Translations under genes and position numbers: made by a program
Shown here: positions 2,938-63,331 of the stretch, one piece after another
Layout: every line of letters starts with the position of its first letter
How positions within the stretch are numbered: position 1 is the first letter of the stretch
The notes under the pieces: model-generated
What the model was told of the DNA's origin: nothing
What the model saw: only the letters and a program-made list of their open reading frames with translations
Databases searched by the model: none
From: Malacoraja senta
Taxonomy: Eukaryota
Length of the DNA: 64,000 nucleotides
NCBI GenBank assembly: GCA_038087875.1
Contig: CM075990.1
Location: 3,412,001 to 3,476,000, forward strand
Reading direction: 5' to 3'

Positions 2938-3008
2938 AATGTAAAGCACTTTGGCCAACGAGAGTTGTTTTTTAAATGTGCTATAGAACTTGACTTGACT
3001 TGACTTGA
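2938..3008 (+). mobile_element. L2-type LINE/SINE 3' tail
   Basis: tgtaaagcactttgg...aaatgtgctatag followed by (acttg)n resembles fish L2 3' ends. Confidence 0.55.
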
Positions 3009-3699
3009 GTGAAAAAAGCTGCCTCAGGTTCCTATTAAATCTTTCCCCCCTCACCTCAAACCCATGTCCTCTGGTTCTCGATTCCCCTACTCTGGGCAAG
3101 AGAGTCTCTGTGTTTACCTGATCTATTCTCTCATGATTTTGTGCATGTTTTAGTTTGAGGTACAGCATGGAAACAGGCGTTTCGAACCATCAAGTCCACG
3201 CTAACATATATGCATGCAGTCGCTGTGCTTGTGTCAGTGTGTGTTAATGTATGTGTATGTTTGAGTTTAGAGTATAGACAAATCGCCATGGAAACAGGCC
3301 CTTCAGCCCATCGGGTTTGTGCCAGCCTTCTCCCACCCTATCACACCAGCTCTATGTCATCCCACTTTCCCATCCACTCCCAACACAATCGGACCAAATT
3401 TACAGCGGGCCAATTAACCTGCAAACCCACCATGACTTCGGGATGTGGTGGGAAACCAGGAAGAAACCGGAAGAAACCCTCGCGGTCACAGCGAAGCACA
3501 CGCAAACTCCACACAGACAGCAGCCAAGGTTAGCATCGAACCCGGGGTCTCTGGCGCAGTGAGGCAGGGGCTCCACCCGCTGCAGCAATGTGCCACCCAC
3601 GCACGTTGATGTCAAGAATTGACGCACCATCCCCCTTCTCTCTCTCACTCTCTCCCTCCTCCTTTTACTTCTGTACCCTTCCCACCTCTCCACATGGCA

Positions 3700-3902
3700 T
3701 TCACCGAGGTCAGCACCCGGCAACACCTAAGTTAACCTGGCGACAACCTACGACGCCCAAATTGTCGCCACTATCGCTGAAAAATGTTCAACATGCTGAA
3801 AGGTTTTTCGCCAGTCGCCTGTAGTCGCCTAAAAAATCGCCTAAGTGGGACAGGCCCATAATGGGCCTGTCCCACTAGGCGATTTCTTAGGCGACTACAG
3901 GC
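3700..3902. mobile_element. Two Harbinger-like MITE ends joined across TAA
   Basis: agtgggacaggccca-taa-tgggcctgtcccact at about 3844-3876. Mirror of 9605-9815. Confidence 0.7.
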
Positions 3903-4329
3903 ACTCCCTCTAATCCTCCCCCTGTGTTCTTTCACTTCCATCCTTACCTTTTCAATGGAAATGCCTCCTTCCGCTTCGCACTGACGTATTAGTATTCTGT
4001 TATGGCTTCGTAACACGATTAAAGCCACAATTAACTCACGTTTATTTTTTGTTAGATCGCATGATCAATAACAATTACGGTTTTAATCACTCAGCAGTCC
4101 TAATTACAGCGTTGTGATGTTAAAGATGTTGATGTTATGTTACATTATGTTTGTAATGTCATTCATGTTAATAATGTACATAGCATTTGACGATACTTTT
4201 TTTATTGTTGCAGATTTTTGAGGTAATAAAGTGATTGTTCAGCACTTTCTCATGCCTTTTTCTGACGTGTCCTTGGCTTATAATTGAGAACTTCCTTTAC
4301 GATATATGAAACGAAAATTTTAAGTGTGT

Positions 4330-4600
4330 TTTAAATTTTTTTTAAATTCATTTTATTAGAAGCAATTGTACGAGAATAAAGCAATGGACATGAAAGTTAT
4401 ACAATTTTCGTACAGCTTCATTTTTAACGTTAATACATAAATTTAAAAAAAAGGAAAGAATGAAGAAAAAAGAAAAAAAATGCAAAAGACAGAGAGAAGA
4501 AAAAGACCCTAAACTACCAAAGAAGTGCAAGAAGAAAGAAGATAAATGAGTAAAAAGAAGAGGGAGATATGCCCCACTGTCCTCCCCCCCCCCCCCCCCC
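4330..4600 (-). mobile_element. Probable L1/Tx1-type 3' UTR remnant
   Basis: On the minus strand, aataaaa is followed by an A-rich tail and preceded by a T-rich UTR and a G-run. Family assignment is by resemblance only. Confidence 0.35.
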
Positions 4601-5324
4601 CTCCACCCCCTGAAAATTGTAAGTGTTTAAAGCTACTTTTGAAGATTGGAAACCATTGGTGCAGAGGTTGGGTTCATAAATGGTTCATATGGACTGCTGC
4701 TGCCTCACAGCGCAGAGACCCGAGTTCGATCCTGACTATCCTGACGCTGTCTGTACGGAGTTTACACGTTCTCCCTGTGACCGCCTGGGTTTCTTCCAGT
4801 TTCCTCCCACGTCCCAAAGGCGTGCAGGCTTGCAGATTGCCCTTGGTGTGGAGGGAGTGGTTGAGAATGTGGGATTACCAAAGCCAATTGACGTGCACAA
4901 GGCTGCACGTCTTTGGAGTGTGGGAGGAAACCGGAGCACCCCGGAGAAAACCCACGCGGTCTCGGGGAGAACGCGCAAACTCCCTGCGGGGCAGCACCTG
5001 TAGTCAGGATTGAACCCGGGGTCACTGGCGCTATAAGGCAGCAACTCTACCGCTGTGCCACTGTACCATTATAATGTTATAGAGTCATAGAGTCATACAG
5101 TGTGGAAACTGGCCCTTCAGCCCAACATGCCCCATCTACACTGGTCCCACCTCCCTGCGTTTGGCCCATATCCCTCTAAACCTGTCCATTCATGTTTTTG
5201 AGAATAATTTAGAAGATCACCTGGGCTGGGCTTGACTTTGCCCTGTCCAGAATAGATGCTGAGATCAACTTTGGGTTTTAGTTTAACCTAGTGGAGATCT
5301 ACACTCTAGAGGCAATTTACAGTG

Positions 5325-5524
5325 NNNNNNNNNNNNNNNNNNNNNNNNNNNNNNNNNNNNNNNNNNNNNNNNNNNNNNNNNNNNNNNNNNNNNNNNNNNN
5401 NNNNNNNNNNNNNNNNNNNNNNNNNNNNNNNNNNNNNNNNNNNNNNNNNNNNNNNNNNNNNNNNNNNNNNNNNNNNNNNNNNNNNNNNNNNNNNNNNNNN
5501 NNNNNNNNNNNNNNNNNNNNNNNN
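5325..5524. other. Assembly gap (200 N)
   Basis: Run of exactly 200 n. Confidence 1.
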
Positions 5525-7966: not shown

Positions 7967-9604
7967 ATATGTCACAGAATCATACAGCAAGTAAAGTGGC
8001 CCTTCAGCCCACTGATTCTACACTGACTATCCCACACCCCCCCCCCCACAAAAAAATCCAATAAATAGCCACGATTTTTCCACTTTAGTTTTGGCTTATT
8101 TTGTTTAGTTAAACTAAACTAATTTCCCCTGGAAGATCGGAATTCATCCCACCTCGCAGAGACATGCGGGTTGATAGGTTAATCACTGTAAATTGCCTCT
8201 AGAGTGTAGATCTCCACTAGGTTAAACTAAAACCCAAAGTTGATCTCAGCATCTATTCTGGACAGGGCAAAGTCAAGCCCAGCCCAGGTGATCTTCTAAA
8301 TTTATTCTCAAAAACATGAATGGGACAGGTTTAGAGGGATATGGGCCAAACGCAGGGAGGTGGGACCAGTGTAGATGGGGCATGTTGGGCTGAAGGGCCA
8401 GTTTCCACACTGTATGACTCTATGACTCTATAACATTATAATGGTACAGTGGCACAGCGGTAGAGTTGCTGCCTTATAGCGCCAGTGACCCGGGTTCAAT
8501 CCTGACTACAGGTGCTGCCCGCAGGGAGTTTGCGCGTTCTCCCCGAGACCGCGTGGGTTTTCTCCGGGTGCTCCGGTTTCCTCCCACACTCCAAAGACGT
8601 GCAGCCTTGTGCACGTCAATTGGCTTTGGTAATCCCACATTCTCAACCACTCCCTCCACACCAAGGGCAATCTGCAAGCCTGCACGCCTTTGGGACGTGG
8701 GAGGAAACTGGAAGAAACCCAGGCGGTCACAGGGAGAACGTGTAAACTCCGTACAGACAGCGTCAGGATAGTCAGGATCGAACTCGGGTCTCTGGCGCTG
8801 TGAGGCAGCAGCAGTCCATATGAACCATTTATGAACCCAACCTCTGCACCAATGGTTTCCAATCTTCAAAAGTAGCTTTAAACACTTACAATTTTCAGGG
8901 GGTGGAGGGGGGGGGGGGAGGGGGAGGACAGTGGGGCATATCTCCCTCTTCTTTTTACTCATTTATCTTCTTTCTTCTTGCACTTCTTTGGTAGTTTAGG
9001 GGTCTTTTCTTCTCTCTGTCTTTTGCATTTTTTTTCTTTTTCTTCATTCTTTCTTTTTTTTTTAATTTATGTATTAACGTTAAAAATGAAGCTGTACGAA
9101 AATTGTATAACTTTCATGTCCATTGCTTTATTCTCGTACAATTGCTTCTAATAAAATGAATTAAAAAAAAAATTAAAAACACACTTAAAATTTTCGTTTC
9201 ATATATCGTAAAGGAAGTTCTCAATTATAAGCCAAGGACACGTCAGAAAAAGGCATGAGAAAGTGCTGAACAATCACTTTATTACCCAAAAATCTGCAAC
9301 AAAAAAAAAAAGTATCGTCAAATGCTATGTACATTATTAACATGATGACATTACAACATAATGTAACATAACATCAACATCTTTAACATCACAACGCTGT
9401 AATTAGGACTGCTGAGTGATTAAAACCGTAATTGTTATTGATCATGCGATCTAACAAAAAAATAAACGTGAGTTAATTGTGGCTTTAATCGTGTTACGAA
9501 GCCATAACAGAATACTAATACGTCAGTGCGAAGCGGAAGGAGGCATTTCCATTGAAAAGGTAAGGATGGAAGTGAAAGAACACAGGGGGAGGATTAGAGG
9601 GAGT

Positions 9605-9815
9605 GCCTGTAGTCGCCTAAGAAATCGCCTAAGTGGGACAGGCCCATTATGGGCCTGTCCCACTTAGGCGATTTTTTAGGCGACTACAGGCGACTGGCGA
9701 AAAACTTTCAGCATGTTGAACATTTTTCAGCGATAGTGGCGACAATTTGGGCCGTCGTAGGTTGTCGCCAGGTTAACTTAGGTTGTCGCCGGGTGCTGAC
9801 CTCGGTGAATGCCAT
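9605..9815. mobile_element. Harbinger-like MITE right end + TTA + left end
   Basis: gcctgtagtcgcc...gtgggacaggccca-tta-tgggcctgtcccac...ggcgactacaggc forms a hairpin at 9605-9691. The left-end copy continues to about 9815. Confidence 0.7.
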
Positions 9816-12800
9816 GTGGAGAGGTGGGAAGGGTACAGAAGTAAAAGGAGGAGGGAGAGAGTGAGAGAGAGAAGGGGGATGGTGCGTCAATTCTTGACAT
9901 CAACGTGCGTGGGTGGCACATTGCTGCAGCGGGTGGAGCCCCTGCCTCACTGCGCCAGAGACCCCGGGTTCGATGCTAACCTTGGCTGCTGTCTGTGTGG
10001 AGTTTGCGTGTGCTTCGCTGTGACCGCGAGGGTTTCTTCCGGGTTTCTTCTGGTTTCCCACCACATCCCGAAGTCATGTGGGTTTGCAGGTTAATTGGCC
10101 CGCTGTAAATTTGGTCCCGATTGTGTTGGGAGTGGATGAGAAAGTGGGATGACATAGAGCTGGTGTGATAGGGTGGGAGAAGGCTGGCACAAACCCGATG
10201 GGCTGAAGGGCCTGTTTCCATGCGATTTGTCTATACTCTAAACTCAAAACATACACATACATTAACACACACTGACACAAGCACAGCGACTGCATGCATA
10301 TATGTTTAGCGTGGACTTGATGGTTCGAAACGCCTGTTTCCATGCTGTACCTCAAATCTAAACATGCACAAAATCATGAGAGGAATAGATCAGGTAAACA
10401 CAGAGACTCTCTTGCCCAGAGTAGGGGAATCGAGAACCAGAGGACATGGGTTTGAGGTGAGGGGGGAAAGATTTAATAGGAACCTGAGGGGCAGCTTTTT
10501 CACTCAAGTCAAGTCAAGTCAAGTTCTATAGCACATTTAAAAAAACAACTCTCGTTGGCCAAAGTGCTTTACATTGGTGGAGATACTAACGTTATACAAC
10601 ATTGGTTCATAGATTAAGTACATACATAAGTACATACATATAGCCCTCCCTCAGAGGACGTCAAGAAAGGCTTGAGAGTAAAGGGTGGTGGGTGAATGGA
10701 ATGAGCTGCTGGAAGAGGTAGTTGAGGCAGGTACTATCACAATGGTTAAGAAACATTTAGACAGGTACATGGATAGGCGGGGTTGGAGGGATTTGGGCCA
10801 AACGCAGGCAAGTGGGCCTAGTGTAGATGGGGCATGTTGGCCAATTTGTCAGGCACAAATCTAATGATGGCCAATAGATAAAGGACTTTTTCTATTGATT
10901 CGTCCAGAACCAGGAACTAAAAGGGAGTCTACAATATAGGTTAATGTCATAGGAGCAGAATTAGGCCATTCAGCCCATCGAGTCCACCCCACCATTCAAT
11001 AATGGCGGATTTAGCTTTCCCTCTCAACCCCATTCTCCTGCCTTCGCGTAACCTTTGAAATACTACAACGTCGGCAATGACAAAGTATTTCCATTGTAAA
11101 TTATCCACGCTGCAAGTGAACATGGTGTAAGGCTTTAAGGTCGCAAGTTGTGATTGATGATAAGTCATTAGTGGGATAGATGGTCCCATTATGGGGAAGG
11201 TTTCCTCTGGCAGGCAGTTCACCTCTTGCCCTCAGTAAGCAGCATAGTCAGTCTCAGGACTTATTCAGCCAAGCTTTCATAAGTTCATAAGTTATAGGAG
11301 CAGAATTAGGCCATTCGGCCCATCAAGTTTAATCCGCCATTCAATCATGGCTCATCTACCTTTCCCTCTCAACCCCATTCTCCTGCCTTCTCCACATGAC
11401 CCCTGACACCTATACAAATCAACAATCTGTCAATCTCCACCTTAAAAATATCCATTGACTTGGTCTCCATCTCCAATTCCACACATTCTCCACCCACCGA
11501 CTAAAGAAATTGTTCCTCATCGCCTTCCTAAAGGGACGTCCTTTTATTATGACGCCATGGCCTCTGGTCCTAGACTCTCCCACTAATGGAAACATCTTGC
11601 CCACATCCACTCTATCCAGGCCTTGCACTATTCGCTAAGTTTCAACGAGGTCCTTCCAGAGTGCTACAGAAGAAGAAGTTCCAGAACATGGGCTGGAAAA
11701 GGTGCAGAGAAGATTTACAAGGATGCTGCCAGGTCTCGAGAGCCTGAGCTATAGGGAGAGGTTGAGAAGGCACAGTTGCACAGCGGTAGAGTTGCTGCCT
11801 TACAGGGCCAGAGACCCGTGTTTAATCCTGACTATGGGTGCTTCCTGTACGGAGTTTGGAAGTTTTCCCTGTGACTGTGTGGGTTTTCTCCTGGTGCTCC
11901 GGTTTCCTCCCACATTCCAAAGACGTGCAGGTTTGTAGGTTAATTGTCTTTGGTAAAATTGTAAATTGTCCCTACTTTGTAGGATAGTGCTAGCATACGG
12001 GGTGATCGCTGGGCGGCACGGACCTGGTGGGCTGAAGGGCCTGTTTTCACCCTGTATCTCTAAAGTCTAAAGTCTAACTGCTATGACTTTATTCCTTAGA
12101 GCCTAGGAGGATGCGGGGTGATCCTATAGTGTATAAGATCATGAAAGGAATAGATAGGGTGAATGCACAGTCTTTTACCCAGATTAGGGGAATTAAGAAT
12201 CAGATAACATAGGTTTAAGGTGAGGGGGTGAAAGATTTAATAGGAACCTGAAGGGCAACTTTTTTACTCAAAGTGTGGTGGGTGTATGGAACAATTTGCC
12301 AGAAGAGGTAGTTGAGGCAGCTTCCATCATAACATTTCTCCCTCATCCTCCTGTGCTTCAAGGAATAGAGTCCTAGCCTGCCCAACCTCTCCCTACAGCT
12401 CAGGCTTTCGAGTCCTGACAACATCCTCGTAAATCTTCTCTGCTCTCCTTCCAGCTTAACAATATGGTGATTGGATTCTACCTTGTTAGAGATGGTCAAT
12501 GTCAGACTTGAATCATACAAAATGGCGACAGAAACATGCCGACTCTTGCGAAGCAGGGTCTCGACCCGAAAGGTCACCCATTCCTTCTCTCCAGAGATGC
12601 TGCCTGTCCCGCTGAGTTACTCCAGCATTCTGTGCCTGTCTTTTGTGACTCTTCTACACTGCCTCAGTGTAATGTACTACTGGTACACTCTTGTACTTAG
12701 GTATGATGGTGCCTATGTACAGTAAGGTTTTTACTGAACTGTACGCAATAAAGGAATTTCACTCTCCCTAGGTACACGTGGCAATAAAGTACCATTGCTC

Positions 12801-12909
12801 ATCATATTCATTTACTGATTACTTGAAGGAATAACTGGTTTAGTTGCACGTAGTGATCTCAAGTAGGAAGTTATAGGGCCTGGATATCATGTCCCAACTG
12901 AAAGACTTA

Positions 12910-13239
12910 TGGGCCTTTCCCACGTACGCAACTTTTTCGGCGACTGCCGGCACCCGTCATAGATCGTTGCAGGTTGCCGAAAATGTTCAACATGTTGAAA
13001 ATCCAGCAGCGACCAGGACAAGGTGCGACTCTTTGGGCGACTACTCACGACCATACAGGCTTCACCCCACGACATGTCGCCTGTACGGTCGTGAGTCGTC
13101 TCCTCAGTCGCCCAAAGAGTCGTAGCGCCTTTCTGGTCGCCGCTGGATTTTCAACATGTTGAACATTTTCGGCGACCTGCAATGACCTATGACAGGTGCC
13201 GGCAGTCGTCGAAAAATTTGCGTAAGTGGGACAGGCCCA
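12910..13239. mobile_element. PIF/Harbinger-like MITE (mirror of 277-604)
   Basis: tta|TGGGCCTTTCCCAC...GTGGGACAGGCCCA|tca. Confidence 0.75.
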
Positions 13240-13554
13240 TCAGACCTACAGTAGACCAGATAACTATCAATACCTTGTTGCTGAATATTTTTATTTCTGG
13301 CTAAGTCATAGAGTCATAGAGATATACAACATGGAAACAGGACCTTCTGAACATCTTGCCCATGCTTAGTTTAGTTTAGTTTCGAGAGACAGTGTGGGAA
13401 CAGGTCCTTCGGCCCACTGTGCCCATGCCGGCCAGCGATCACCCGCACACTAGCTCTATCCTACGCTGACCAAGTTGGCATAGTGGGCTAGTCCCATTTG
13501 CCTGGATTTGTTCCGTAGCTGTTTAAATTACAAGTGGACAATGTCACACTGACG

Positions 13555-13766
13555 TGTTAAAGAAGGAACTGCAGATGCTGGAAAATCGAAGGTAGACAAA
13601 AATGCTGGAGAAACTCAGCGGGTGCAGCAGCATCTATGGAGCGAAGGAAATAGGCAACGTTTCGGGCCAGTCTGAGGAAGGGTTTCAGCCCGAAACGTTG
13701 CCTATTTCCTTCGCTCCATAGATGCCGCTGCACCCGCTGAGTTTCTCCAGCATTTTTGTGTACCTT
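13555..13766. mobile_element. Penelope-like inverted pLTR pair with TSD
   Basis: Two inverted arms matching the 3' end of the GIY-YIG fragments in this window. Flanked by caatgtcacactgacg at 13539-13554 and 13767-13782. Confidence 0.75.
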
Positions 13767-16318: not shown

Positions 16319-18012
16319 AAAGATAGGTGCAAAACGGGGCCTGGAATCACCTGTTCCTTTTCTCCAGAGATGCTGCCTGACCCGCTGAGTTGCTCCAATA
16401 CTGATTCTATGCCTCCTTGTCACCTTCCCCTCAGCTAACAATGAACCATTAACATTTCCTTATCATCGTCTGCTTTGATCTGTCATTTTCATACCTTACC
16501 CTTCCATATCTCTAGACTCCCTCTCCCCTGACTCTCAGTCTGAAGTAGGGTTTCGACCCGAAGCGTCACCCATTCCTTCTCTCCAGAGATGCTGCCTGAC
16601 CCGCTCAGTTACTCCAGCATTTTCTGTCTATTTCTCTCTTCCCTCAGGAGTCAAGGCTATCAACTCTGTGTGGAGCCACATGTGATGGGCAAGGTCCTCA
16701 ATGAGTATTCCTCCTCTGTTTATTCCATGGAGAAAGACAGGAGGACTGCGGAACTCAGGGCAGTCAACGGAAGAGTCTTGAGACTAGGCAGTATTTCGGG
16801 GACATGGGTTTAAGATGAAGGGGAAAAGATTTAATAGGAATCTGAGAGGTAACTCTTTCACATAAAGGCTGGTGGGTGCATGGAACGAGCTGCCGGAGGA
16901 GGTAGTTGAGACTTTTGCAATGTTTCAGAAACAATTAGACAGTTACATGGATAGAACAGGTTTAGATGGATATTGGCCAAATGCAGGCAGGTGGGACTAG
17001 AGTAGATGGGACATGTTGGTCGGTGTGGGCAAGTTGGGCAGAGGGGCCTGTTTCCACGCTGTACCACTCTATGATTCTATCTATATTAATGACTTGGATT
17101 TGAATGTCGGAGGTATGATTAATAAGTTTGTGATTAGTGGTGTTACAGCTAGACAGCGTGGTCTAAAAGGCTTTTCTACGCTAACCTCTAGTAAGAGCAT
17201 TGAGTACAGATGTTGGAATGCTATATTGCAGTTTCACAAGACGTTGTTGAGGTTGGACTTGGAGTATTGCTGAATCAAGCAACTGCAGATGCTGGTTGAT
17301 GGGAAAAGTGGCGCAAAGTGCTGGAGTAACTCAGCGAGTCAGGCAGCATCTCTGGAGAACATGGATAGGTAACATTTTTGGGTTATGAAGAAGGGTCCCA
17401 ACCTGAAACATCATCAATCCATGTTCTCCAGAGAACATACCTTATCTGTATGGAATTTGCACGTTCAAGTTGTGACCATGTGGGGTTTCTCCGGGTGCTC
17501 CGGTTTCCTCCCACATTCCGAAGACACGTTCCGAAGAAGGTTAATTGGCTCCTGTAAATTGTCCCTAGAGTGTGGGATAGAACCATTGTACGGGGTGATT
17601 GTTGGTCAGTGCAGACTCAGTGGGCTGAAGGGCCTGTTTCCATGCTGTATCTCTAAACTAAACTAAACTAAACCAAATTAAACTAAACCAAACTATGTAC
17701 AATACTTCACATTTCGCTTGAGCAGCTGACAGCCCGGCAGGATGATTCTTGCTATCTCTGATTTCAAGCAAACCCCTGCACTCCCCCTCTGTCCGTGACT
17801 CCCCAGTCTTCCTGCCAGTTCCACTGTTCATATCCTTTTGTTATCACCTCCTCTACAGCCAACAATGGACCATTGTGGGCTCCACCTTTTCTTTATCATC
17901 GGTGTCAGCTTTGTTTTGTACTGCACCTTTACATACCTCTAAATTTTTTTCTCCCCTGACTCTCAATCACCAATTCCTTTTCTCCAGAGATCCTGCCAGA
18001 CCCACTGAGTTA

Positions 18013-30684: not shown

Positions 30685-31243
30685 GATATCGGCGAGACCA
30701 AGCGCAGGCTCGGCGATCATTTCCCTGAACACCTCCGCTCAGTCCGCCGAAACCTACCTGATCTCCTGGTTGCCAAACACTTTAACTCTCCCTCCCCCTC
30801 CCATTCCCACACAGACCTTTCTGTCCTGGGCCTCCTCCACTGTCAGAGTGAGGCCCATAGCTAATTGGAGGAACAACACCTCATATTTCGCTTGGGCAGC
30901 TTATACACCAGCGGTATGAACATTGACTTCTCTAACTACAAATAGCCCTTGCTTTCCCTCTCTTTCCATCCCTCCCCCTTCCAGTTCTCTGACTGTCCAC
31001 TTGATAAATTCTGTATGCTTCCTTGCCACCTTCCCCAAGCTAACAATTACCTATGCTACATTTTCCTCAATCTTCATCCCCTTTCATGTCCCATTTTCAC
31101 ACCTTACCCTTCCATATCTCTGTCTCCCTCTCCCCTGACTCTCAGCCTGAAGAAGAGTCTCAAACCTGAAAGGTCACCCATTCCTTCTCTCCAGAGATGC
31201 TGCCTGTCCCGCTGAGTTACTCCAGCATTTTGTGTCTATCTTC
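30685..31243 (+). mobile_element. Penelope-like element 3' end: GIY-YIG endonuclease remnant + pLTR
   Basis: IGETKRRLGDHFPEHLRSV..VAKHFNS..DLSVLGL..LEEQHLIFRLGSL..GMNIDF with an internal stop, then the pLTR ending tgtgtctatcttc. Confidence 0.85.
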
Positions 31244-31510
31244 AGATGCTATTAAATCTGTACCCTGCTCTATCCCATCCGATATGCCCAATCTTGCGCT
31301 TAGCTGGAGATGTTGGAGTGGAGATGGAACCATCTCCGTCTCTGTTGAAGATTGCAGCAATGGGAACCTGGTGAGTCTCTCATCTCAGCGTGGAGTCCAG
31401 GGCGGTCAGGCGAAGTCATTTATACCAACACTATTGATGGAAATATTCATAGAAATTGTTGGCGCATTCATCAGGCGGCACGGTGGCGCAGCGGTAAATT
31501 TGCTGCCTTA

Positions 31511-33075: not shown

Positions 33076-33384
33076 CATAGAAACATAGAACATAGGTGCA
33101 GGATTAGGCCATTCGGCCCTTCGATCCAGCACCGCCTTTCAGTATAATCATGGCTGATCGTTGAAAATCAGTCTGAAGAAGGGTTTTGACCCGAAACGTT
33201 GCCTATTTCCTTCGCTCCATAGATGCTGCCTCACCCGCTCCAAAGTTTCCCCAGCATCTTTGTCTACCATTGAAAATCAGTACCCCGTTTCTGCTTTCTC
33301 CCAATATCCCTTGATTCCGTTCACCGTCAGGGCCATATCTAACTCTCTCTTAAAAACATCCAGTGAATTGGCCTCCTCATATCA

Positions 33385-40834: not shown

Positions 40835-41231
40835 TTTGTTAAGGGCTTGGACACGCTAGAGGCAGGAAACATGTTCCCGATGTTGCGGGGAGTCCAGAAC
40901 CAGGGGCCACTGTTGAAGAATAAGGAGTAAGCCATTTAGAACGGAGACGAGGAAACACTTTTTCTCACAGAGAGTGGTGAGTCTGTGGAATTCTCCGCCT
41001 CAGAGGGCGGTGGAGGCCGGTTCTCTGGATACTTTCAAGAGAGAGCTAGATAGGGCTCTTAAAAATAGCTGGAGTCAGGGGATATGGGAGAAGGCAGGAA
41101 CGGGGTACTGATTGGGGATGATCAGCCATGATCACATTCAATGGCGGTGCTGGCTCGAAGGGCCAAATGGCCTACTCCTGCATCTATTGTCTATTGTCTA
41201 TTGTCTATTGTCTATTGTCTATTGTCTATTG
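40835..41231 (+). mobile_element. CR1 3' fragment with long (tctattg)n tail
   Basis: KGLDTLEAGNMFPML..SRTRGH; about 7 units of tctattg at 41183-41231. Confidence 0.88.
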
Positions 41232-42839
41232 ACAGGCAGCATCTATGAGAGAAGGAAAGGTTGACGTTTCGGGTCGAGACCCTTCTTCGGACAAAAAGTT
41301 TTTGTTGCGTGCTAACCAGCCAGCAGAGAAACAATACATGATTACAATCGAAGGTATACTCAAAATGCTGGAGTAACTCAGTGGGACAGGCAGCATCTCT
41401 GGAGAGAAGGAATGGGTGACGTTTCGGGTGGAGACCCTTTCTCGCTTGCTTTGATCTATTGTTTCCACACTTTACCCATCCATGTCAGTCGTTTCCTCTC
41501 CCCTGACTCTCAGCCTGAAGAAGGGTCCTAATTGAAAACCTAGCAATTATTGAAAGACTGGATAGAGTGGATGTGAAGAGGACCCAAAACGTCACCCATC
41601 AGTCTGAAGAAGGGTCTCCGACCCGAAAACGTCATCCATTCCTTCTCTCCATAGATTCTGCCTGTCCCGCTGAGTTACTCCAGCACTTTTGTGTCTATCT
41701 TCGGTGTAAACCAGCATCTGCAGTTCCTTTCTTCACAGTATTCCCCCGCGTTGGTTTATCCGAGGCAGAGGTGATGAAACTACACCTTGAGTTTAGTTCA
41801 GTTTAGTTTAGTTTGGTGCCCTCTGGTCCCAGACTCTCCCACTAATTGGAAATATCCTCCCCACATCCACTCTATCCAGTCCTTCATTATTTGCGAGGTT
41901 TAAATTAGGACCCTTCTTCAGTCTGGGAGTCAGGGGAGACGGAAACAAGAGATATGGGAGGGTAACGTGTAGAAAACAATAGACCAAAGCAGGCGAAAAA
42001 AGGGTCTCGACCCGAAACGTCACCCATTCCATCTCTCCAGAGATGCTGCCCGTCCTGCTGTGTTACTCCAGCTTTTTGTATCTATCTTAAATTTTAATTT
42101 AGTTCAGTTTAGAGATGCAGCTCGGAGCCAGGCCCTTCACAAAGACCAGGGATCCCCGCATATTAACACTATGCACCACCTACACACATGAGGGACAATT
42201 TTCCATTTATACCATTTATGTCTATAAACAGGTGATCGTTGGTCGGCACGGACCCGATGGGCCGAAGGGCCTGCTTCCACACTGTAACTCTAAAGCTAAA
42301 GTCCAAAGGCGATAGCAGGAACCTCAGTTACTGCCTGAAGCTCCTGACAGACTAATTAAAAAGCCAAAATCATAATCTGCATTTTTACACATACCCAATT
42401 TTTTTTCCCCCAAAGACACTCAAAGACAATGGTAAAATAAAAAAAGTGATTGCTTTTAAAGGAAGCATCGTGACTGATTGGATTTAGTCCGTGTCTGAGG
42501 TTGGGTGATATTCCTTTATCTACATTTAATTGTGTTGAGGGATGGAATTTGACTTTTTCGCGATTCAAAGATACATTCCCCACAAGCCTGCTACGCCCTG
42601 ACTGCTCATTGATGCAATAACTTATTATGCAAAGAATATCAAAACAATTCCACTCTACCGTTTTAATAATTCTGCTCTTTGAAAGTCGTGTGCAAGACCT
42701 ATAAAGTAAATTAATCATTTTAAAAATCGTTGCTTTGAATTTTAAGAACTTTGTCCAGTACATGCCCGCACACGTGCAGACCACAGGCAGACCGACAATC
42801 ACAGGTGTACACAGGCACACTGAGGCAAGTTACACATGT

Positions 42840-42987
42840 ATGTGGGAAAGAACTGCAGGCGCTGGTTTAAACCAGAGATAGACACAAAAAGCTGGAGTAA
42901 CTCAGCGGACAGGCAGCATCTCTGGAGAAAAGGGAATAGGTGACGTTTCGGGTCGAAACCCTTCTTCAGAGTCTGACGAAGGGTCTC
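42840..42987 (-). mobile_element. Penelope-like pLTR with intact hammerhead-like core
   Basis: Minus strand 42942-42969 reads CTGAAGA-AGGGTTTCGACCC-GAAACGTC. A short inverted stub, ctgacgaagggtctc, follows. Confidence 0.7.
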
Positions 42988-43032
42988 AAGTACACTTGTA
43001 AACAGAGAAACCTGGCAGAGACACAGGTACCA

Positions 43033-43356
43033 TGGGCAGCACGGTGGCGCAGCGGTAGAGTTGCTGCCTTACAGCGCCAGAGACCCATGTTTGATCCTGA
43101 CTACGGGGTGCACAATACCTGTCTGTACTGAGTTTGTACATTTCTCCCCGTGACCCGCGTGGGTTTACTCCGGGATCTCCGGTTTACTCCAAAGACGCAC
43201 AGGTTTCTAGGCTAATTGGCTTGGTAAAATTGTAAATTGTCCCTGGTGTGTGTGGGTTAGTGTTAAAGTGCGGGGATCGCAGGTCAGCACGGACTCTGTG
43301 GGCCGAAGGGCCAGTTCAGGCGCTGTATCTCTAAACTAAACTAAACTAAACTAAAC
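43033..43356 (+). mobile_element. V-SINE (HE1-like), full length
   Basis: gggcagcacggtggcgcagcggtagag ... (ctaaa)n tail. Confidence 0.9.
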
Positions 43357-48413: not shown

Positions 48414-49689
48414 AAATTGTGATCATGGCTGATCATCCACAATCAGTAACCCGTGCCTGCCTTCTTCCCATATCCCTTGATTCCGCTAGCCCCTAGAGCT
48501 CTTTCTGACTCTCTTTTAAATTCATCCAGTGAATTGGCCTCCACTGCCTTCTGTGGCAGAGAATTCCACAAATTCACAACTCTCTGGGTGAAAATTCACA
48601 ACATCTCTGGGTGCTCCAGTTTCCTCCTACACTCCAAAGACGTACAGGTCTGTAGGCTAATTGGCTTGGATAGGTTGTAAAATTGTCCCTAGTGTGTCCC
48701 TAGTGTGCTCGTGTACGGGGTGATCGCTGGTCGGTGCGGATCCGGTGGGCCGAAGGGCCTGTTTCTGCGCTGTATCTCTGAAGTTTAAATACTGCAGACG
48801 ATGGAATCTGGAGCGAAAAAAAATCTGCTGGAGGAACTGGGTCGACAATGTTTCAGGTCAAGACTCCACGTCTTTCCACCTTCCACCTTGTGCAAGTAGA
48901 AACTGTTGACTGTTGGTTTTTCACTAATAGATATCCACTGGGAAATTTGTGCAACCATTTGTCCAGCACCAGGGTCGACCACCAACACCAAGATGCAGCA
49001 CAGAACGCCACAGGAGATCCTTCTTCCCTGTGGCTATCGAACTGTACAACTCCTCCTCCTTCTGTCGTGGGGTAGATTGACTCCCCCCCCCCCCCCCACC
49101 CAACCCCCCTCCCCAATTCTTTGCACATCCCCAATCCTTTCCACTCATCACTTTAATTTCACGTTTCAAGCATCCTGAGTTTTATGACTGTTGGCCGATC
49201 AATATCCCTCCTGGGATAAATATAGTTCTTTCGTGTTGTATCGCATCGTACTTCAACCTTCACAAGGGACACAGGTTTAAGCGATTCCTTCCAATCTCAT
49301 CGGACACATCGACCCGTGAACCATCGTCCCCTCTCCTCACTCGGCCACCCCACAGTCTTCCTGCCACAAGGGGGCGCCTCCAGCAGCCGACCTCGTAGAC
49401 CAAGCGCAGGCTCGGCGATCGTTCCACTGAACACATCCGCTCAGTCCGCCTGAACCTCCCTGATCTCCTGGTTGCCGGACACTTTAACCCCTTTCCCCTC
49501 CTATCCCACACTGACCTTTCTGTCCTGGGCCGCCTCCATTGTCAGAGTGAGGCCCAGCGCAAATTGGAGGAACAGCACCTCATATTTCACTTGGGCAGCT
49601 TACACCCCAGCGGTATGAACGTGGACTTCTCTACCTTGCTTTCCCTCTCTCTCTATCCCTCCCCCTTTCAAGTTCTCCAACCAGTCTTA

Positions 49690-49994
49690 TGGGGCTGTCC
49701 CACTGTACAAGCTAATTCAAGAGTTCTCCCGAGTTTCCCCTGATACGAACTCGGAGATTTACGGTAATAGCCGCTCGTAGGTACTCGGGGCTCTCTTGGA
49801 CATTTTTCAACATGTTGAAAAATCTTCATGAGTCTTCACAAGCTTACCACGTTTCCCGAGTACCTGCCGTTAGCGTTACGAGCCGCTAAGAGACGTCCCC
49901 GAGCTTCGTACATTCTACGTGCTTACCACAAGTTTGATTTTTTTTCTACACTCGGGAGAGCTCTTGAGTAAACTCATACAGTGGGACAGCCCCT
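49690..49994. mobile_element. PIF/Harbinger-like MITE (subfamily B) with perfect TTA TSD
   Basis: tta|TGGGGCTGTCCCAC...GTGGGACAGCCCCT|tta. Removing it restores ccagtcttactgtcc. Confidence 0.88.
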
Positions 49995-50230
49995 TTACTG
50001 TCCCCGACTACATTTCTGTTTGCTTTGTTGTTACTTTATCCCAGCTAACAATGATCTCTTCTACATTTTCCTCAATCTCCATTCCCTTTTGCCCTGTTTT
50101 CTCCCTTTGCACTTCCTTATCTATGTGCCTCCCTCTCCCCTGACACCAGTCTGAGGAAGGGGCTCGACCCGAAACCTTCACCCATTCCTTCCCTCCAGAG
50201 ATGTTGCCTGTCCCACTGAGTTACTCCAGC

Positions 50231-56195: not shown

Positions 56196-57194
56196 CACAC
56201 AGGCTGTTCTGAACCTTTCCTTGCTCTATTGTAAACCCATTGAGTAATCAATTAGCAGGGACAGGACTGCATTAGCACCTAATTAAGGTGGCAGGGAATT
56301 GTAATCCAGAGTGCACTTGACTCCTTGTTGTTAATACGGTTCCTTGGATCAGTTGGCAGAGCTCCCTGCCCTGTGTCGCGGAGAGAAGGGAGCGTGAAGA
56401 TGTTGCACTTTGATGTCCTTTCTAGAGAATATTATGTAAACAAGTTAAAGGATAAAAGGCCTTTGTCTTGGGGGAAAAGGGCAAAATGAATTAAATTTAG
56501 TCTGGTCGACCTGGGCCAAGAGAGGGGCTGTTTTGTTCAGTCTGACAAACCTCCGTCGACCTGTTGTTTTCAGGCATCCTTCAGCAACATAGAAGAGGTC
56601 AGAGGTCAGAGGTACTGACTACAACATCTTGACCCCCCCCCCTCCACAAAGCCCCCCACTAAACCATGGGAATCCGAGCATGAACACAATCAGAGCAGCC
56701 GTATAAAGGCCGACTCGCCCAGGGTCAATATTCAACTCCAAAAGCAGGGCCTAGGAGGGAAAGTTCAGCTGCAAAGACCGCCAAGGCCAACTTCCACAAG
56801 AAAGGCGGAGAGAGAGAAGAACCTCGGCCACTAATTGCGACGTATTCACTGGATGGGCATGTTTGAAGATCGAGGGATGGGTTTTGGGGGGGATGAGAAA
56901 GAAGAGGTTAATGATGGCCAGGTGTGTCCATTCTTTACCGGATGCCCTGCTAATTCACCCTGACTTAACCCGAAGGCCTCTTGTCAACAACAGGGCAAGA
57001 CAAGGCCCAGAATTCTGTGGACGGCTTTTAAATTGTTCGCAAGGTGTTTTTTTGGGGGGTGGTGGTGGTGGTGGTGGGGGGGGGGGGGGGGGGAGGACCA
57101 TGGACACCATGGAAACCATTTTATCAGGATGCATTTTCAGTGGAACTGTTTCCTTTATCATTGTTACTTTTCTGCAGATCTTTCATTCATTTTA

Positions 57195-57646
57195 GGTAGA
57201 CAAAAATGCTGGAGAAACTCAGCGGGTGAGGCAGCATCAATGGAGCGAAGGAAATAGGCAACGTTTCGGGTCGAGACCCTTCTTCAAACTGGTGTGGGGG
57301 TGGAGGGGGCGGGAAGAAGAAAGGAAGAGGCGGAGACAGTGGGCTCTGGGAGAGCTGGGAAGGGGAGGGGAAAGAAGGAGAAAGCAGGGACTACCTGAAA
57401 TTGGAGAAGTCAATGTTCATACCGCTGGGGTGTAAACTACCCAAGCGAAATATGAGGTGCTGCTCCTCCAATTTACGGTGAGCCTCACTCTGGCCATGGA
57501 GGAGGCCCAGGACTGAAAGGTCGGATTCGGAATCGGAGGGGGAGTTGAAGTGCTGAGCCACCGGGAGATCAGGTTGGTTATTGCGGACCGAGCGGAGGTG
57601 TTGGGCGAAACGATCGCCAAGCCTACGCTTGGTCTCACCGATGTAG
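57195..57646 (-). mobile_element. Penelope-like 3' end (GIY-YIG remnant + pLTR)
   Basis: Minus strand reads YIGETKRRLGDRFAQHLRSVRNNQPDLPVAQHFNS..DLSVLGLLHGQSEAHRKLEEQHLIFRLGSLHPSGMNIDFSNFR-stop, then the pLTR. Confidence 0.88.
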
Positions 57647-57647
57647 A

Positions 57648-57978
57648 TTTTAGTATAGTTTAGTTTAGTTTAGTGATAGAGCATGGAAACAGGCCCTTCG
57701 GCCCACCGAGTCCACGCCGACCAGCGATCCCCGCACATTAACACTACCCCACACACAGTAGGGACAATTTTACATTTAATCCGAAGCCAATTAACCTACA
57801 AACCTGCACGTCTTTGGAGTGTGGGAGGAAACCGAAGATCTCGGAGAAAACCCACGCAGGACAAGGGGACGACGTACAAACTCCGTACAGACAGCACCCG
57901 TAGTCAGGATCGAACCCGGGTCTCCAGGGCTATAAACGCTGTAAGGCAGCAACTCTACCGCTGCACCACCAGGCCGCC
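57648..57978 (-). mobile_element. V-SINE (HE1-like)
   Basis: Full head-body-tail on the minus strand. Confidence 0.88.
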
Positions 57979-58235
57979 CATATGTTCTATATCTCTCTGC
58001 ATCATCGTCCATATCTCTCATTCTCCTCTCCCGTGACTTTCACTCTGAAGAAGGGTCTCGGCCCAAAACCTCACCCATCCCTTCTCTCCACAGTTGCCCT
58101 TTGACCCGCTATGTTACTCAAGCACTTTGTGTCAATCGTGGGCAAAAAGGGAACATGGAATATCAATGTCCATTAAGGTAGAGGAGAATCCCAAGAGAAT
58201 CTACATGTTAATGGTAACCAGGGAAGGAACTCCCT

Positions 58236-59893: not shown

Positions 59894-60265
59894 TGTGTGT
59901 AGGAAGGAACTGCAGACGCTGGTTTACACTGAAGATAGACACAAAATGCTGAAGTAACTCTGCGAGACAGGCAGCATCTGTGGATGGAAGGAATGGGTGA
60001 CGTTTTTGGGTCGAGGCCCTTCTTCAGACTGAGCCTGCAGGGGAGAGGGAGTTACAGGGATAAGGAAGTGTAGCTAACATTGTTCTATTCTACATTTTCC
60101 TACATTGATCTGCATCTCTTTTGATCTCTTTCTCTTCCTTATCTCTGTAACTTCATCTCCTCTGACGCTCAGTCTGAAGAAGGGTCTCGATCCAAAATGT
60201 CACCCATTCCTTCTATCCAGAGACGCTGTCTGTCATGCTGAGTTACTCCAACATTTTGTGTCTAT
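59894..60265. mobile_element. Penelope-like inverted pLTR pair with 13-bp direct repeat
   Basis: cttccaccatcac at 59881-59893 and 60266-60278. Both arms carry ctgaagaaggg. Confidence 0.75.
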
Positions 60266-60671
60266 CTTCCACCATCACCTTCTGCTTCTTTCCATGAAGC
60301 CAATTTTCTATCCACTCAGATATCCTCCTTGGATCCCATGCAATCTAACCTTCCAGAACAGCCTGCAATGCGAAACCTTGTAGAATGCAAATATATGAAA
60401 GATTACAGGAGAAAGCCTGGGAACAACAGACTGGTGAGCCTTAGGTATCAATGGAGGGAAAGTAATGGCAGAGGATTCTGAGAGGCAAGAGCTCTTTAAA
60501 GCTAATCAGCTTGGTGCGTGGAAAATTATGTCTCAGTAATTTGATTGAGTTATTTGCGGAGGAAATCAAGAACACTGATGTAGAGTTAATATGACTTGAT
60601 GTTTCAATCCCTGTAGTAAGTCGGAACTCTTGATATTGACAGTGGGATTGGAGAGGTGAAAGGTTGGGTAG

Positions 60672-60871
60672 NNNNNNNNNNNNNNNNNNNNNNNNNNNNN
60701 NNNNNNNNNNNNNNNNNNNNNNNNNNNNNNNNNNNNNNNNNNNNNNNNNNNNNNNNNNNNNNNNNNNNNNNNNNNNNNNNNNNNNNNNNNNNNNNNNNNN
60801 NNNNNNNNNNNNNNNNNNNNNNNNNNNNNNNNNNNNNNNNNNNNNNNNNNNNNNNNNNNNNNNNNNNNNNN
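60672..60871. other. Assembly gap (200 N)
   Basis: Run of exactly 200 n. Confidence 1.
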
Positions 60872-61286
60872 CCAGGTGTGGTCTCACTAGGACTCTGTAC
60901 AACTGCAGAAGGACCTCTTTGCTCCTATATTCGATTCCTCTTGTTATAAAGGCCAACATGCCATTCGCTTTCTTCACTGCCTGCTGTACCTGCATGCTTA
61001 CTTTCATAGACTGATGTACAAGGACCCCCAGATCCCGTTGTACTTCCCCTTTTCCCAACTTGACGCCATTTAGATAGTAATCTGCCTTCCTGTTTTTGCT
61101 ACCAAAGTGGATAACCTCACATTTATCCGCATTAAACTTCATCTGCCATGCACCTGCCCACTCCCCCACCCTGTCCAAGTCACCCTGCATTCTCATAGCA
61201 TCCTCCTCACAGTTCACACTGCCACCCAGCTTTGTGTCATCTGAAAATTTGCTAATGTTACTTTGAATCCCTTCATCCAAATCATT
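60872..61286 (-). mobile_element. CR1 reverse-transcriptase fragment (young, frame intact up to the gap)
   Basis: NDLDEGIQSNISKFSDDTKLGG..DLDRVGEWA..WQMKFNADKCEVIHFG..RDLGVLV..KKANGMLAFITRGIEYRSKEVLLQLYRVLVRPHL. Confidence 0.93.
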
Positions 61287-61469
61287 GGACTTGATTGCTA
61301 GTTGAAGGGAGCGACCCCTCACCCCCATTATCTTCAATAGCCTGGTCGTAGATGCAGCAATGAATCCCCTGCATCCCATTTCTACAGGGAGAATCTTGGT
61401 CTTCCTGCCATTCTGGGCAGCTTCAGTTGCCAGATCAGAGTACTTGGTCTTTTTCCTCTCATTATCCAT
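61287..61469 (-). mobile_element. HERO/R4-like non-LTR restriction-like endonuclease C-terminal fragment
   Basis: ERKKTKYSDLA...ILPVEMGCRGFIAAS..LLKIMGVRG fits the K..KY..L...PVEvGCRG pattern of RLE-type non-LTR elements. Confidence 0.7.
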
Positions 61470-61697
61470 ATGGACTATGTTAACAAGATATCACATTGTA
61501 AGTTGGTCTGGAAGATTGGATCATACAGCATCCAGTGCAGGCAAGGCAATTGCATACCAAATTGGCTTGAGTTGTGTTTAGTATATTATACAGTGAAAAG
61601 CTTGAGGGTAAGAGATAGAAGATGGTGGAAGAGGACTATCTTCTACCTTTCCTTGATCATCGTTGATTTTTACAAATCTTCCTATGCGGTATTGGCT

Positions 61698-62010
61698 TTA
61701 TTTAGTTTTGTTTCGTTTCGTTCAGGGATACAGCGCGGAAACAGGCCCTTCGGCCCACCGAGCCCGCACCGACCAACGATCCCCGCACATTAACACTATC
61801 CAACACACACTAGGGACAATTTTACATTTATATCAAGCCAATTAACCTACAAACCTGTACGTCTTTGGAGTGTGGGAGGAAACCGAAGATCTCGGTGAAA
61901 ACCCACGCAGGTCACGGGGAGAACGCACAAACTCCGTACAGACAGCACCCAGAGTTGGGATCGAACCTGGGTCTCCGGCGCTGTGAGGCAGCAACTACGC
62001 CACCGTGCCA
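61698..62010 (-). mobile_element. V-SINE (HE1-like)
   Basis: Head and B box ggttcgatcc on the minus strand; (tttcg)n tail. Confidence 0.87.
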
Positions 62011-63331
62011 TCCCTGTGCCGTCTATATCACTCCTTTCCCTCTCCCCTGAATATCAGTCTGAAGAAGGGTCTCGACCCGAAACATCACCCATTCCTTTTC
62101 TCCATAGATGCTGCCTGTCCCGCTGAGTTACTCCGGCATTTTGTGCCTACCCGAGCAGAAATAGACACAAAGTGCTGGAGCAACACAATGGGTCAGGCAG
62201 CGTCTATGAAGATAGACAAAAAATGCTGGAGAAACTCAGCGGGTGAGGCAGCATCTATGGAGAGAAGGAATAGGCGACATTTCGGGTCGAGACCCTTCTT
62301 CAGACCCATGTTGGGGGGGGGGGGGTGGAGGCGGGATAAAGAAAGGAAGTAGGCGGAGACAGTAGGACTTGTGGGAGAACTGGGAAGGGGGGAAGGGGGA
62401 AGGAGGGAGAAAGCAAGAGCTATCTAAAATGAGTCAATGTTTAGCAGGTCAGTTTAGCAGCATCTACGGAGAAATAGTTTAGGTGGCGTTTCTGACCGGA
62501 CTGATAGTCCAAAGTCTCAAGAAGGGTCCCGACACGAAACGTCACCTATCCTTTTTCTCCAGAGATGCTGCTGGACCCGCAGAGATACTCCAGCACTTTG
62601 TGTCTACCTTTGGTCTAAACCAGCATCCACAGTTCTTTGTTTCTACCCTGGCAGAAGCTCTTTACCACTGCCATGTCCAGTTTTGCAGCATCCAAATTCT
62701 TGGACAGTTTTGTATATTTTCATTCAATCTCCGAATCCATTCTGCCGCATCTGGGCTCTTTATGTATGTGTTCAAAGGCTAACGAAAATTAAGTGCACTG
62801 AAATGAAATTATTACATTTCAAAGTATTTAGCAAGTACCGTGAACTGAGAAACATTATAATGGTCTTCACAGATTTTTCAGCTTATTCTAATATTCGGAA
62901 TTAGAAGTTTTCAGATGAGTGATCTTTGCTGATGTTACAAGATAGTTAATGGGCACATTATGAAAAGGACAATCAGCATTACGAAGGTTCACTTTCCATT
63001 AACACCTGTGATAGATATGGAAACCTACTGCAGTGTAAACACGCACACTGTAGCTAAGCAGTGCAGAAGCACCTCAAGTCTGGTGGCAACAATTGATTCA
63101 CAGAAGGCTGTGGAGGCCAAGTCAATGGATATTTTTAAGGCAGAGATAGATGGATTCTTGATCAGTACGGGTGTCAGGGGCTATGGGGAGAAGGCAGGAG
63201 AACGCGGTTAGGAGGGAGAAATAGATCAGCCATGATTGAATAGTGGAGTAGACTTGATGGGCCGAATGGCCGAATTCTGTTCCTATCTCTTATGACCTGA
63301 TGATTCCTGACTACCTTCAACAGTCTGCCTA

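What the first reader, a model, noticed from the sequence alone, without database searches (positions are those of the whole stretch)
42942..42969. Hammerhead-ribozyme-like core in the Penelope pLTRs, many copies
Seen: CTGA-N-GA-A-[stem-loop]-GAAA-CG-TH recurs. The best copy is on the minus strand here (CTGAAGA AGGGTTTCGACCC GAAACGTC); others are at 13672, 33173, 41604, 50151 and 62059 (+) and about 60000 and 62280 (-). N varies (A, G at 13672/50151, C at 42973), as tolerated at hammerhead position 7. The GGG...CCC stem is kept while its loop varies, and ACGT after GAA is palindromic. Established: Penelope-like elements carry minimal hammerheads that can cleave as dimers through a palindromic stem III. 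Caveats: there is an extra A before stem II and I see only about 2 bp of stem I, so activity is unproven.
Basis: partly seen in the sequence, partly recalled or inferred. Interest (0 to 1): 0.7.

Follow-up and report, generated by a model that had tools for sequence, protein, structure and literature searches.

The report
Known minimal hammerhead in Penelope repeat
The motif is a real minimal hammerhead-ribozyme sequence at the head of the short terminal repeat of a Penelope-like jumping gene in a skate-like fish genome, a known arrangement, and most copies here, including the one flagged, are too damaged to cut RNA.

Summary
The motif is real (7 exact hits, 1.35 expected) and heads a repeat of about 100 bp with 36 copies here. 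Three copies follow a GIY-YIG ORF end whose closest relatives are skate and shark Penelope-like proteins. Inverted pairs and two 3' ends about 35 nt apart fit Penelope pLTRs and tails. It matches the published metazoan min-HHR consensus (PMC4209133); the 'extra A' is a listed feature of that class, not a caveat. Helix I is only 2 bp, and only 2 of 22 core-spanning copies keep all features (13671, 33172). The flagged copy is not the best one: its helix I is 1 bp and an inverted arm pairs with its core. Variants shared between copies avoid the core (0 of 10 sites against 4 of 5 tolerant sites), private changes do not, and there is no covariation. No RNA ends pile up at the cut site. Activity is untested. 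The scan already noted this kind in shark genomes. Verdict: new member of a known kind.

The parts
42942..42969 (-). Flagged min-HHR core, C3 (42969) to C17 (42942); predicted cut between 42942 and 42941; helix I only 1 bp because position 2.2 is C
42838..42970 (-). Solo pLTR copy with tail that carries the flagged core
42971..42987 (+). Inverted arm holding only the 5' half of the hammerhead (N7=C); forms a -21.4 kcal/mol hairpin with the flagged core; P(stem II)=0.000
42826..42839 (.). Left copy of a degenerate ~13-bp target-site duplication (right copy 42987-42999; one indel, one mismatch)
   Evidence: read from the sequence
13670..13701 (+). Intact min-HHR (N7=G, U17, helix I G-C and U.G); head-to-head with a second arm on the minus strand
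33171..33202 (+). Intact min-HHR (U17, 2-bp helix I) in a solo pLTR with a 12-bp target duplication that overlaps the helix I 5' strand
57391..57642 (-). C-terminal GIY-YIG fragment of a Penelope-like ORF, with its stop codon
57194..57289 (-). pLTR about 100 nt downstream of that ORF end; hammerhead with C3->U
30688..30945 (+). Second GIY-YIG ORF end (79% identical to the first; one internal stop)
31145..31245 (+). pLTR downstream of the second ORF end; hammerhead decayed
49399..49638 (+). Third GIY-YIG ORF end (55% identical to P0005)
50149..50230 (+). pLTR downstream of the third ORF end, separated from it by an inserted repeat; palindrome broken
41602..41738 (+). Listed copy; extra A in GAAA and extra loop nucleotide; with tail
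59897..60270 (.). Head-to-head inverted pLTR pair (60028-, 60173+); both have lost G12; tail on one arm only
62057..62305 (.). Listed copies 62059(+) and 62303(-); palindrome broken in both

Best explanation
The motif is the minimal type I hammerhead (min-HHR) carried at the 5' edge of the pseudo-LTR of an endonuclease-bearing Penelope-like element, probably of the Neptune clade, in a skate-like cartilaginous fish. SHOWN: the sequence features; the position downstream of a GIY-YIG ORF end on the same strand; the pLTR anatomy; constraint on the core at subfamily level and neutral decay after insertion. INFERRED from published work: a monomer cannot form helix III. Two copies in a tandem transcript pair their ACGU palindromes and swap helix I strands, cutting 3' of GUC or GUU, slowly and probably only with the element's own protein bound. 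Most genomic copies are short reverse transcripts running from internal priming sites (about +97 and +133 from U2.1) back to the pLTR 5' edge, copied from uncleaved RNA, and are inert. My odds: identity 0.9; master-element RNA cleaves in some setting about 0.5; flagged copy cleaves under 0.05.
For: Motif excess. Match to the min-HHR consensus CUGANGAH G..C GAAAN-palindrome-NU H (PMC4209133 main text and Fig. S3 text). All 3 GIY-YIG ORF ends found in the window lie upstream of a hammerhead copy on the same strand. Best homologues are skate and shark proteins; P0003, P0005 and P0006 carry a Cys-rich linker before the EN, and P0005 has RVT_1 plus GIY-YIG. 3' ends: 16 of 36 at +95..+110, 14 of 36 at +127..+134, 5 elsewhere, 1 row misassigned; this fits the 30-40 bp tail (PMC8557442, PMC11167929). 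Variants shared by 3 or more copies: 0 of 10 non-CpG core sites against 4 of 5 tolerant sites (p=0.004). Private changes are equal in core and flank, 13/220 against 64/1034. In 4 public runs, 94-98% of depth has C3; the hammerhead variants shown fall at H17, 1.1, 11.4 and loop 2, and none of them breaks the core or a pair. A distant PLE found by protein alone (L002, 38%) also has a min-HHR-like motif downstream of its ORF (n=1).
Against: Helix I is 2 bp with a U-A or U.G closing pair, at the weak end of the published set. No covariation above shuffles: 293/500 for pairing, 281/500 for covariation. Core against downstream flank for shared variants is not significant (0/10 against 13/47, p=0.096), and copies of one subfamily are not independent. 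Stem II forms with P<=0.15 in the flagged copy and P<=0.04 in 13671; only 33172 reaches 0.12-0.69. The double-hammerhead fold scores about 10-13 kcal/mol above the cofold minimum (the model ignores core tertiary contacts). No read ends pile up in one RNA run. Only 40 of 138 variant rows were shown. No Rfam hammerhead family matched at E<=10. No RT domain, full-length element or ORF start of this family was found in the window.
Confidence: 0.88

Rival explanations
1. Vestigial hammerhead: the motif descends from a min-HHR but no longer cleaves in this lineage because helix I shrank to 2 bp. The core is kept, if at all, as promoter DNA or as a protein-binding RNA element. This is compatible with the identity above and rivals only the activity claim.
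For: 2-bp helix I and 2 of 22 intact copies. Competing folds. No covariation. No RNA ends at the cut site. Only 1 of 26 short 5' ends lies within +27..+31 around the cut. In the anole element, hammerhead mutants did not affect insertion in vitro (PMC11167929).
Against: Shared variants fall on the positions a hammerhead tolerates: N7, loop 2, H17, and 1.1 A/G against U2.1. 2-bp helix I examples are in the published set: D. virilis, Culex, Oikopleura.
Confidence: 0.4
2. Chance resemblance inside a multiplied repeat: one accidental match was copied many times, so recurrence says nothing.
For: Recurrence is indeed explained by repeat copy number. No Rfam hit.
Against: All class features co-occur at the place where they are reported in PLEs, and a distant PLE has the same motif.
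Confidence: 0.04
3. Non-LTR retrozyme: tandem hammerhead repeats that give circular RNAs.
For: Reported in one chondrichthyan genome and derived from PLE pLTRs (bioRxiv 10.64898/2026.07.22.740005).
Against: Copies here are dispersed, solo or head-to-head. I saw no head-to-tail array of two intact hammerheads among the 36 copies.
Confidence: 0.05

Closest known systems
Metazoan PLE minimal hammerhead, min-HHR (Cervera and de la Pena 2014, PMC4209133)
   Same: CUGANGA core, unpaired nucleotide between 9 and 10.1, G10.1-C11.1 pair, GAAA-CG-U-H with no loop 3, position in the pLTR downstream of the RT-EN ORF, mostly solo copies.
   Different: Helix I is 2 bp (G-C plus U-A or U.G) where the consensus shows about 3 or more; helix II is 4 bp. 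No shark, skate or ray row appears in the Fig. S3 text or Table S1 that I read.
Anole Poseidon element PAc hammerhead (Frangieh et al. 2024, PMC11167929)
   Same: pLTR hammerhead; two 3' end classes that define a tail; no RNA-seq reads ending at the cut site.
   Different: There the ORF starts inside the hammerhead and cleavage was shown with protein. Here the element looks Neptune-like, the ORF start was not located and nothing was assayed.
Drosophila virilis Penelope hammerhead (PMC4209133; promoter and intron in PMC2377424)
   Same: 2-bp helix I next to a 3' splice site; here a CAG after a pyrimidine-rich tract lies 2 nt before C3.
   Different: D. virilis has two G-C pairs, a 2-nt loop 3 and a proven intron. 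No spliced read was seen here.
Canonical type I hammerheads of non-LTR retrozymes
   Same: Core, and dimer formation through a palindromic helix III.
   Different: No 6-bp helix I with loop-loop contacts, no tandem array, no Rfam match.

Membership tests
PLE min-HHR (PMC4209133) | Core C3 U4 G5 A6 N7 G8 A9 and G12 A13 A14 A15.1, U16.1, H17 | tested here: met
   Majority state at every position in 22 copies; complete in the flagged copy; C3 in 94-98% of depth in 4 runs
PLE min-HHR (PMC4209133) | One unpaired nucleotide between 9 and 10.1 | tested here: met
   A in 22 of 22
PLE min-HHR (PMC4209133) | G10.1-C11.1 closing pair and helix II | tested here: met
   92% of helix II cells pair; 4 bp with a 4-nt loop
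PLE min-HHR (PMC4209133) | Palindromic 15.2-16.2 (ACGU) in place of helix III and loop 3 | tested here: met
   C-G in 12 of 22 copies; the rest mostly CpG decay
PLE min-HHR (PMC4209133) | Helix I (about 3-5 bp; 2 bp in some listed examples) | tested here: inconclusive
   Family state is 2 bp (G2.2-C1.2 in 15 of 22; U2.1-A or G in 19 of 22); 1 bp in the flagged copy
PLE min-HHR (PMC4209133) | Lies in the pLTR downstream of a PLE ORF, same strand | tested here: met
   3 of 3 GIY-YIG ORF ends
PLE min-HHR (PMC4209133) | Covariation of stems across families | tested here: inconclusive
   No excess over shuffles in 22 closely related copies; too little divergence to test
PLE min-HHR (PMC4209133) | Self-cleavage as dimer or with protein help | not testable with these tools
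   Only indirect: no read-end pile-up in one RNA run
EN+ Penelope-like element | C-terminal GIY-YIG endonuclease | tested here: met
   P0001 weak Pfam PF01541 hit (E=0.044, below cut-off); 66% identical to P0005, which passes the cut-off
EN+ Penelope-like element | RT in the same ORF | tested here: inconclusive
   Absent from the window's 5'-truncated fragments; present in homologue P0005 (RVT_1 E=9e-5, below cut-off)
EN+ Penelope-like element | Inverted head-to-head pLTRs and optional 30-40 bp tail | tested here: met
   Six two-armed inverted pairs plus the flagged locus; tail on one arm only in 5 of the 6; two 3' end classes
Neptune clade | CX2-5CxxC linker between RT and EN (PMC8557442) | tested here: inconclusive
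   Seen in homologues P0003, P0005, P0006, P0011, P0013; the window's fragments begin after it; no RT tree was built
Non-LTR retrozyme / canonical type I HHR | Tandem units each with a complete hammerhead; 6-bp helix I | tested here: not met

The most novel reading that the evidence does not exclude
The pLTR begins at the hammerhead's own helix I: 13 of 26 short copies start at -9..+3 from U2.1. Just there lie an initiator-like TCAGTC and a CAG after a pyrimidine-rich, often AG-free tract. If this is a transcription start or a splice acceptor, helix I is kept at 2 bp in the primary RNA so that the reverse-transcription template stays uncut. The ribozyme would then be switched on only when splicing or the element's protein supplies a longer helix I. 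That would give a testable answer to what PLE hammerheads do.
Probability: 0.1. Interest if true: 0.55.

Novelty: new member of a known kind. Interest (0 to 1): 0.17.

Why it matters
Little as a discovery: hammerheads in Penelope pLTRs have been known since 2014, and this scan noted them in shark genomes before. It adds a skate-type family at the weak extreme of the class (2-bp helix I) in which the core still seems constrained between subfamilies. That makes it a usable test case for the open question of whether PLE hammerheads cut in vivo and why they are kept. At this density (36 copies in 64 kb), activity in host transcripts would matter, but 20 of 22 core-spanning copies are broken.

Tried and rejected
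Rfam scan at E<=10: 49 weak matches, none a hammerhead family and none at gathering score; the miRNA-type hits at 13612-13742, 60037-60163 and 62113-62198 coincide with inverted pLTR arms. No whole genome is held for this window, so no full-length element or genome-wide subfamily set could be studied. Protein-seeded scans gave 1 locus in viral contigs (L001, not examined further) and 1 in metagenome contigs (L002), too few for cross-species covariation. A long hairpin between the purine-rich core and the pyrimidine tract downstream was considered as a selected 'off' switch. Rejected: z-scores -0.15 to +1.86 in 7 of 7 window copies. Copies starting at the cut site as products of cleaved RNA: rejected, 1 of 26; the other apparent cases are an inverted junction (18612) and a microhomology deletion of the core (about 17967). 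A cap-derived extra G at 5' ends was considered and dropped, because fold-back at the GTC/GAC microhomology gives the same letters (copy 17384; loose ends). Splicing at CAG|U: no such joint among the 15 of 180 joints shown; inconclusive. Automatic 5'-end calling misassigned 6 copies to neighbours and failed on 1, so ends were set by hand. Host exons: 130 of 145 non-repeat frames were scanned, with 3 weak Pfam hits below cut-off and no host gene. Lunse et al. (PMC5785218) is not held; I know it only through the review PMC6765202. Searches for a skate or shark PLE hammerhead paper each listed one paper, neither on this by its title and abstract start; the library lacks most subscription papers and Repbase or Dfam entries.

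Full report
OBSERVATION. The minus strand at 42969->42942 reads CUGAAGA-A-GGGU-UUCG-ACCC-GAAA-CG-U-C. The loose pattern has 7 exact matches in the window against 1.35 expected; 0 of 100 shuffles reached 7. The full motif with up to 2 mismatches has 11 matches against 0.00. The recurrence comes from a repeat: 38 BLAST hits. I dropped 969 (a duplicate inside a 98.7% identical 5.3-kb inverted duplication) and 36704 (a weak 38-nt hit), leaving 36. Of 26 copies aligned, four that lack the 5' core were dropped; 22 span the core. Rfam found no hammerhead family at E<=10.

WHAT THE REPEAT IS. Three C-terminal GIY-YIG fragments lie at 57642-57391(-), 30688-30945(+) and 49399-49638(+). Each is upstream of a hammerhead copy on the same strand. 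A search of longer proteins gave 22 hits among 67 candidates. The best are from skates (77-83% identity) and sharks (65-66%), so the window is inferred to come from a skate-like fish. P0005 has RVT_1 and GIY-YIG matches. Several homologues carry a Cys-rich linker before the endonuclease, which PMC8557442 (passages read) gives as the mark of Neptune and Nematis; the window's fragments start after it, so the clade is inferred. 3' ends fall in two classes: 16 of 36 at +95..+110, 14 of 36 at +127..+134 from U2.1, 5 elsewhere, 1 row misassigned. This matches the optional 30-40 bp tail and the two internal priming sites of the anole element (PMC11167929, parts 1-2 of 4 read). Six two-armed head-to-head pairs occur (13671/13684, 14257/14269, 17384/17399, 18585/18616, 60028/60173, 63415/63430), five with the tail on one arm only. 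No RT or full-length copy of this family was found in the window.

FIT TO THE KNOWN CLASS. PMC4209133 (parts 1-2 of 4 of the text and parts 1-2 of 3 of the supplement read) gives the consensus CUGANGAH G..C GAAAN-palindrome-NU H. It lists the nucleotide between 9 and 10.1, the G10.1-C11.1 pair and the palindromic 15.2-16.2 as conserved features. Helix I is the weak point: G2.2-C1.2 plus U2.1-A1.1 or U.G. The supplement lists 2-bp helices for D. virilis, Culex and Oikopleura, but with two G-C pairs. That paper found no cleavage of a min-HHR monomer and low cleavage of dimers and trimers. The anole hammerhead cut only with protein added, was not needed for insertion, and had no RNA-seq ends at the cut site.

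STATE OF THE COPIES. Only 2 of 22 keep core, 4-bp stem II, palindrome and 2-bp helix I: 13671+ and 33172+, both of the U17/G1.1 subfamily. The G12 flag on 41603 there is an alignment artefact; its defects are an extra A in GAAA and an extra loop C. The flagged copy has an intact core and stem II but C at 2.2, because it starts at a palindromic junction centred on 42971. The other arm (42971-42987) holds only the 5' half of the motif. With that arm the RNA folds into a -21.4 kcal/mol hairpin and stem II has probability 0.000. The insertion is flanked by a degenerate duplication of about 13 bp.

CONSTRAINT. Against the majority letter, non-CpG core sites differ in 13 of 220 cells and the downstream flank in 119 of 981 (p=0.006). 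Splitting the changes shows why. Private changes (1-2 copies) are equal, 13/220 against 64/1034. Variants shared by 3 or more copies hit 0 of 10 core sites, 1 of 9 paired sites, 4 of 5 tolerant sites and 13 of 47 downstream sites (core against tolerant p=0.004; core against downstream p=0.096). So copies decay neutrally after insertion, while the lineages that spread seem to have kept the core; copies within a subfamily are not independent, so the p-values overstate. Covariation does not exceed shuffles. Laying 4 public runs on 57185-57520 at 80% likeness placed 109,968, 120,312 and 10,724 contigs and 29,469 RNA reads. C3 is present in 94-98% of depth where this copy has U. The hammerhead variants shown are H17 U->C (24-67%), 1.1 G->A (7-30%), 11.4 A->G (9-33%) and loop 2 C->U (9-36%); none of them breaks the core or a pair. 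Only 40 of 138 rows were shown, so core variants may be hidden. No place had many RNA molecules beginning or ending. That run is single-cell cDNA, about 1% read, chosen by species label, and 77% of its reads run on into unlike sequence, which fits read-through of dispersed copies; it is a weak test. A distant PLE found by protein alone (L002, 38%) has a min-HHR-like motif with a 3-bp helix I about 440 nt after its stop; it is one case, and has G at the 9/10.1 position and A10.1.

FOLDING. Stem II forms with P<=0.15 in the flagged copy, P<=0.04 in 13671 and 0.12-0.69 in 33172, depending on flanks. The competing hairpin is no more stable than shuffles, so I do not treat it as selected. The double-hammerhead fold scores -6.5 and -7.1 kcal/mol against cofold minima of -16.1 and -19.7; the model omits core tertiary contacts. 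Unassisted activity is therefore unlikely.

5' EDGE. Ten copies keep 36 nt or more of upstream sequence. Of the other 26, 13 start at -9..+3 from U2.1 (4.8 expected, p=0.0003). These ends were set by hand and the interval was chosen after seeing the data. Loose ends in three contig sets also cluster there. One of 26 starts near the cut site. So most copies come from uncleaved RNA, and the pLTR begins at helix I. Two readings are open. One is a transcription start at TCAGTC (the initiator consensus is recalled; an Inr-like TCACT in rotifer pLTRs is in PMC3846280, passages). The other is a 3' splice site: 7 of 9 upstream-bearing copies have G at 2.2 as part of CAG (62304 has GGG and 58044 has CAC), 7 of 9 have an AG-free stretch of 53-104 nt, and pyrimidine fractions are 0.73-0.87. 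D. virilis has its intron end at helix I (intron in PMC2377424, passages). No spliced joint was among the 15 of 180 shown. Fold-back at short microhomologies explains the inverted cases without either.

MECHANISM AND RIVALS. Most likely, tandem transcripts of the master element form a double hammerhead through ACGU, helped by the element's protein, and cut 3' of GUC or GUU at a low rate. The genome fills with short uncleaved pLTR copies that then decay. Identity 0.9; activity of the master RNA about 0.5; activity of the flagged copy under 0.05. The main rival is a vestigial motif (0.4 on the activity question). Chance resemblance and retrozyme are unlikely.

NOVELTY. The class is published. 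No chondrichthyan row appears in the 2014 table or alignment text that I read. A 2026 preprint (10.64898/2026.07.22.740005; part 1 of 5, passages and section 14 read; supplements not seen) applied minimal descriptors to one chondrichthyan genome and may cover related families. Two searches found no paper on skate PLE hammerheads. Three earlier notes of this scan report the same kind in shark genomes; they are unchecked AI notes and are not counted as support. Verdict: new member of a known kind, interest 0.17.

Noticed in passing
window 1-5324 and 8184-13517: A 5.3-kb inverted duplication, 98.7% identical, abutting a 200-N gap at 5325-5524; possibly an assembly artefact or a recent segmental duplication.
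   Followed up: no
window 17940-18012 (+): pLTR copy in which the whole hammerhead core is deleted between two TCA microhomologies, joining the upstream tract to the sequence at the cut site.
   Followed up: partly
window 41230-42090: Nested cluster of at least four pLTR copies plus two 5'-half arms (near 41516 + and 41860 -), with rearranged inverted segments.
   Followed up: partly
window 62296-62310 (-): Copy 62304 has GGGU instead of CAGU before the core, which would give a helix I of 4 bp or more; its palindrome is broken. Single case; may be a variant or a junction product.
   Followed up: partly
window 49700-49990: A repeat of about 300 bp with inverted ends is inserted between the third GIY-YIG ORF end and its pLTR; a related copy starts near 18013 right after a pLTR fragment.
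   Followed up: no
window 60873-61490 (-): Open frame with a weak RVT_1 match (E=0.0026), probably a LINE fragment; cut by the N gap at 60672-60871.
   Followed up: no
window 42990-43356, 57655-57990, 61701-62030 and many others: A second abundant repeat of about 350 bp ending in (ACTAA)n, often next to pLTR copies; looks like a SINE (label from recall).
   Followed up: no
L002:2079-2115 (+): min-HHR-like motif (3-bp helix I, 4-bp helix II, palindromic loop 3) about 440 nt downstream of a distant PLE GIY-YIG ORF end in a metagenome contig.
   Followed up: partly
protein hits P0004, P0015: Skate gene models named receptor-transporting protein 3-like and neuromedin-U receptor 1 contain this GIY-YIG fragment at 71-77% identity; either mis-annotation or exonised Penelope sequence.
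   Followed up: no
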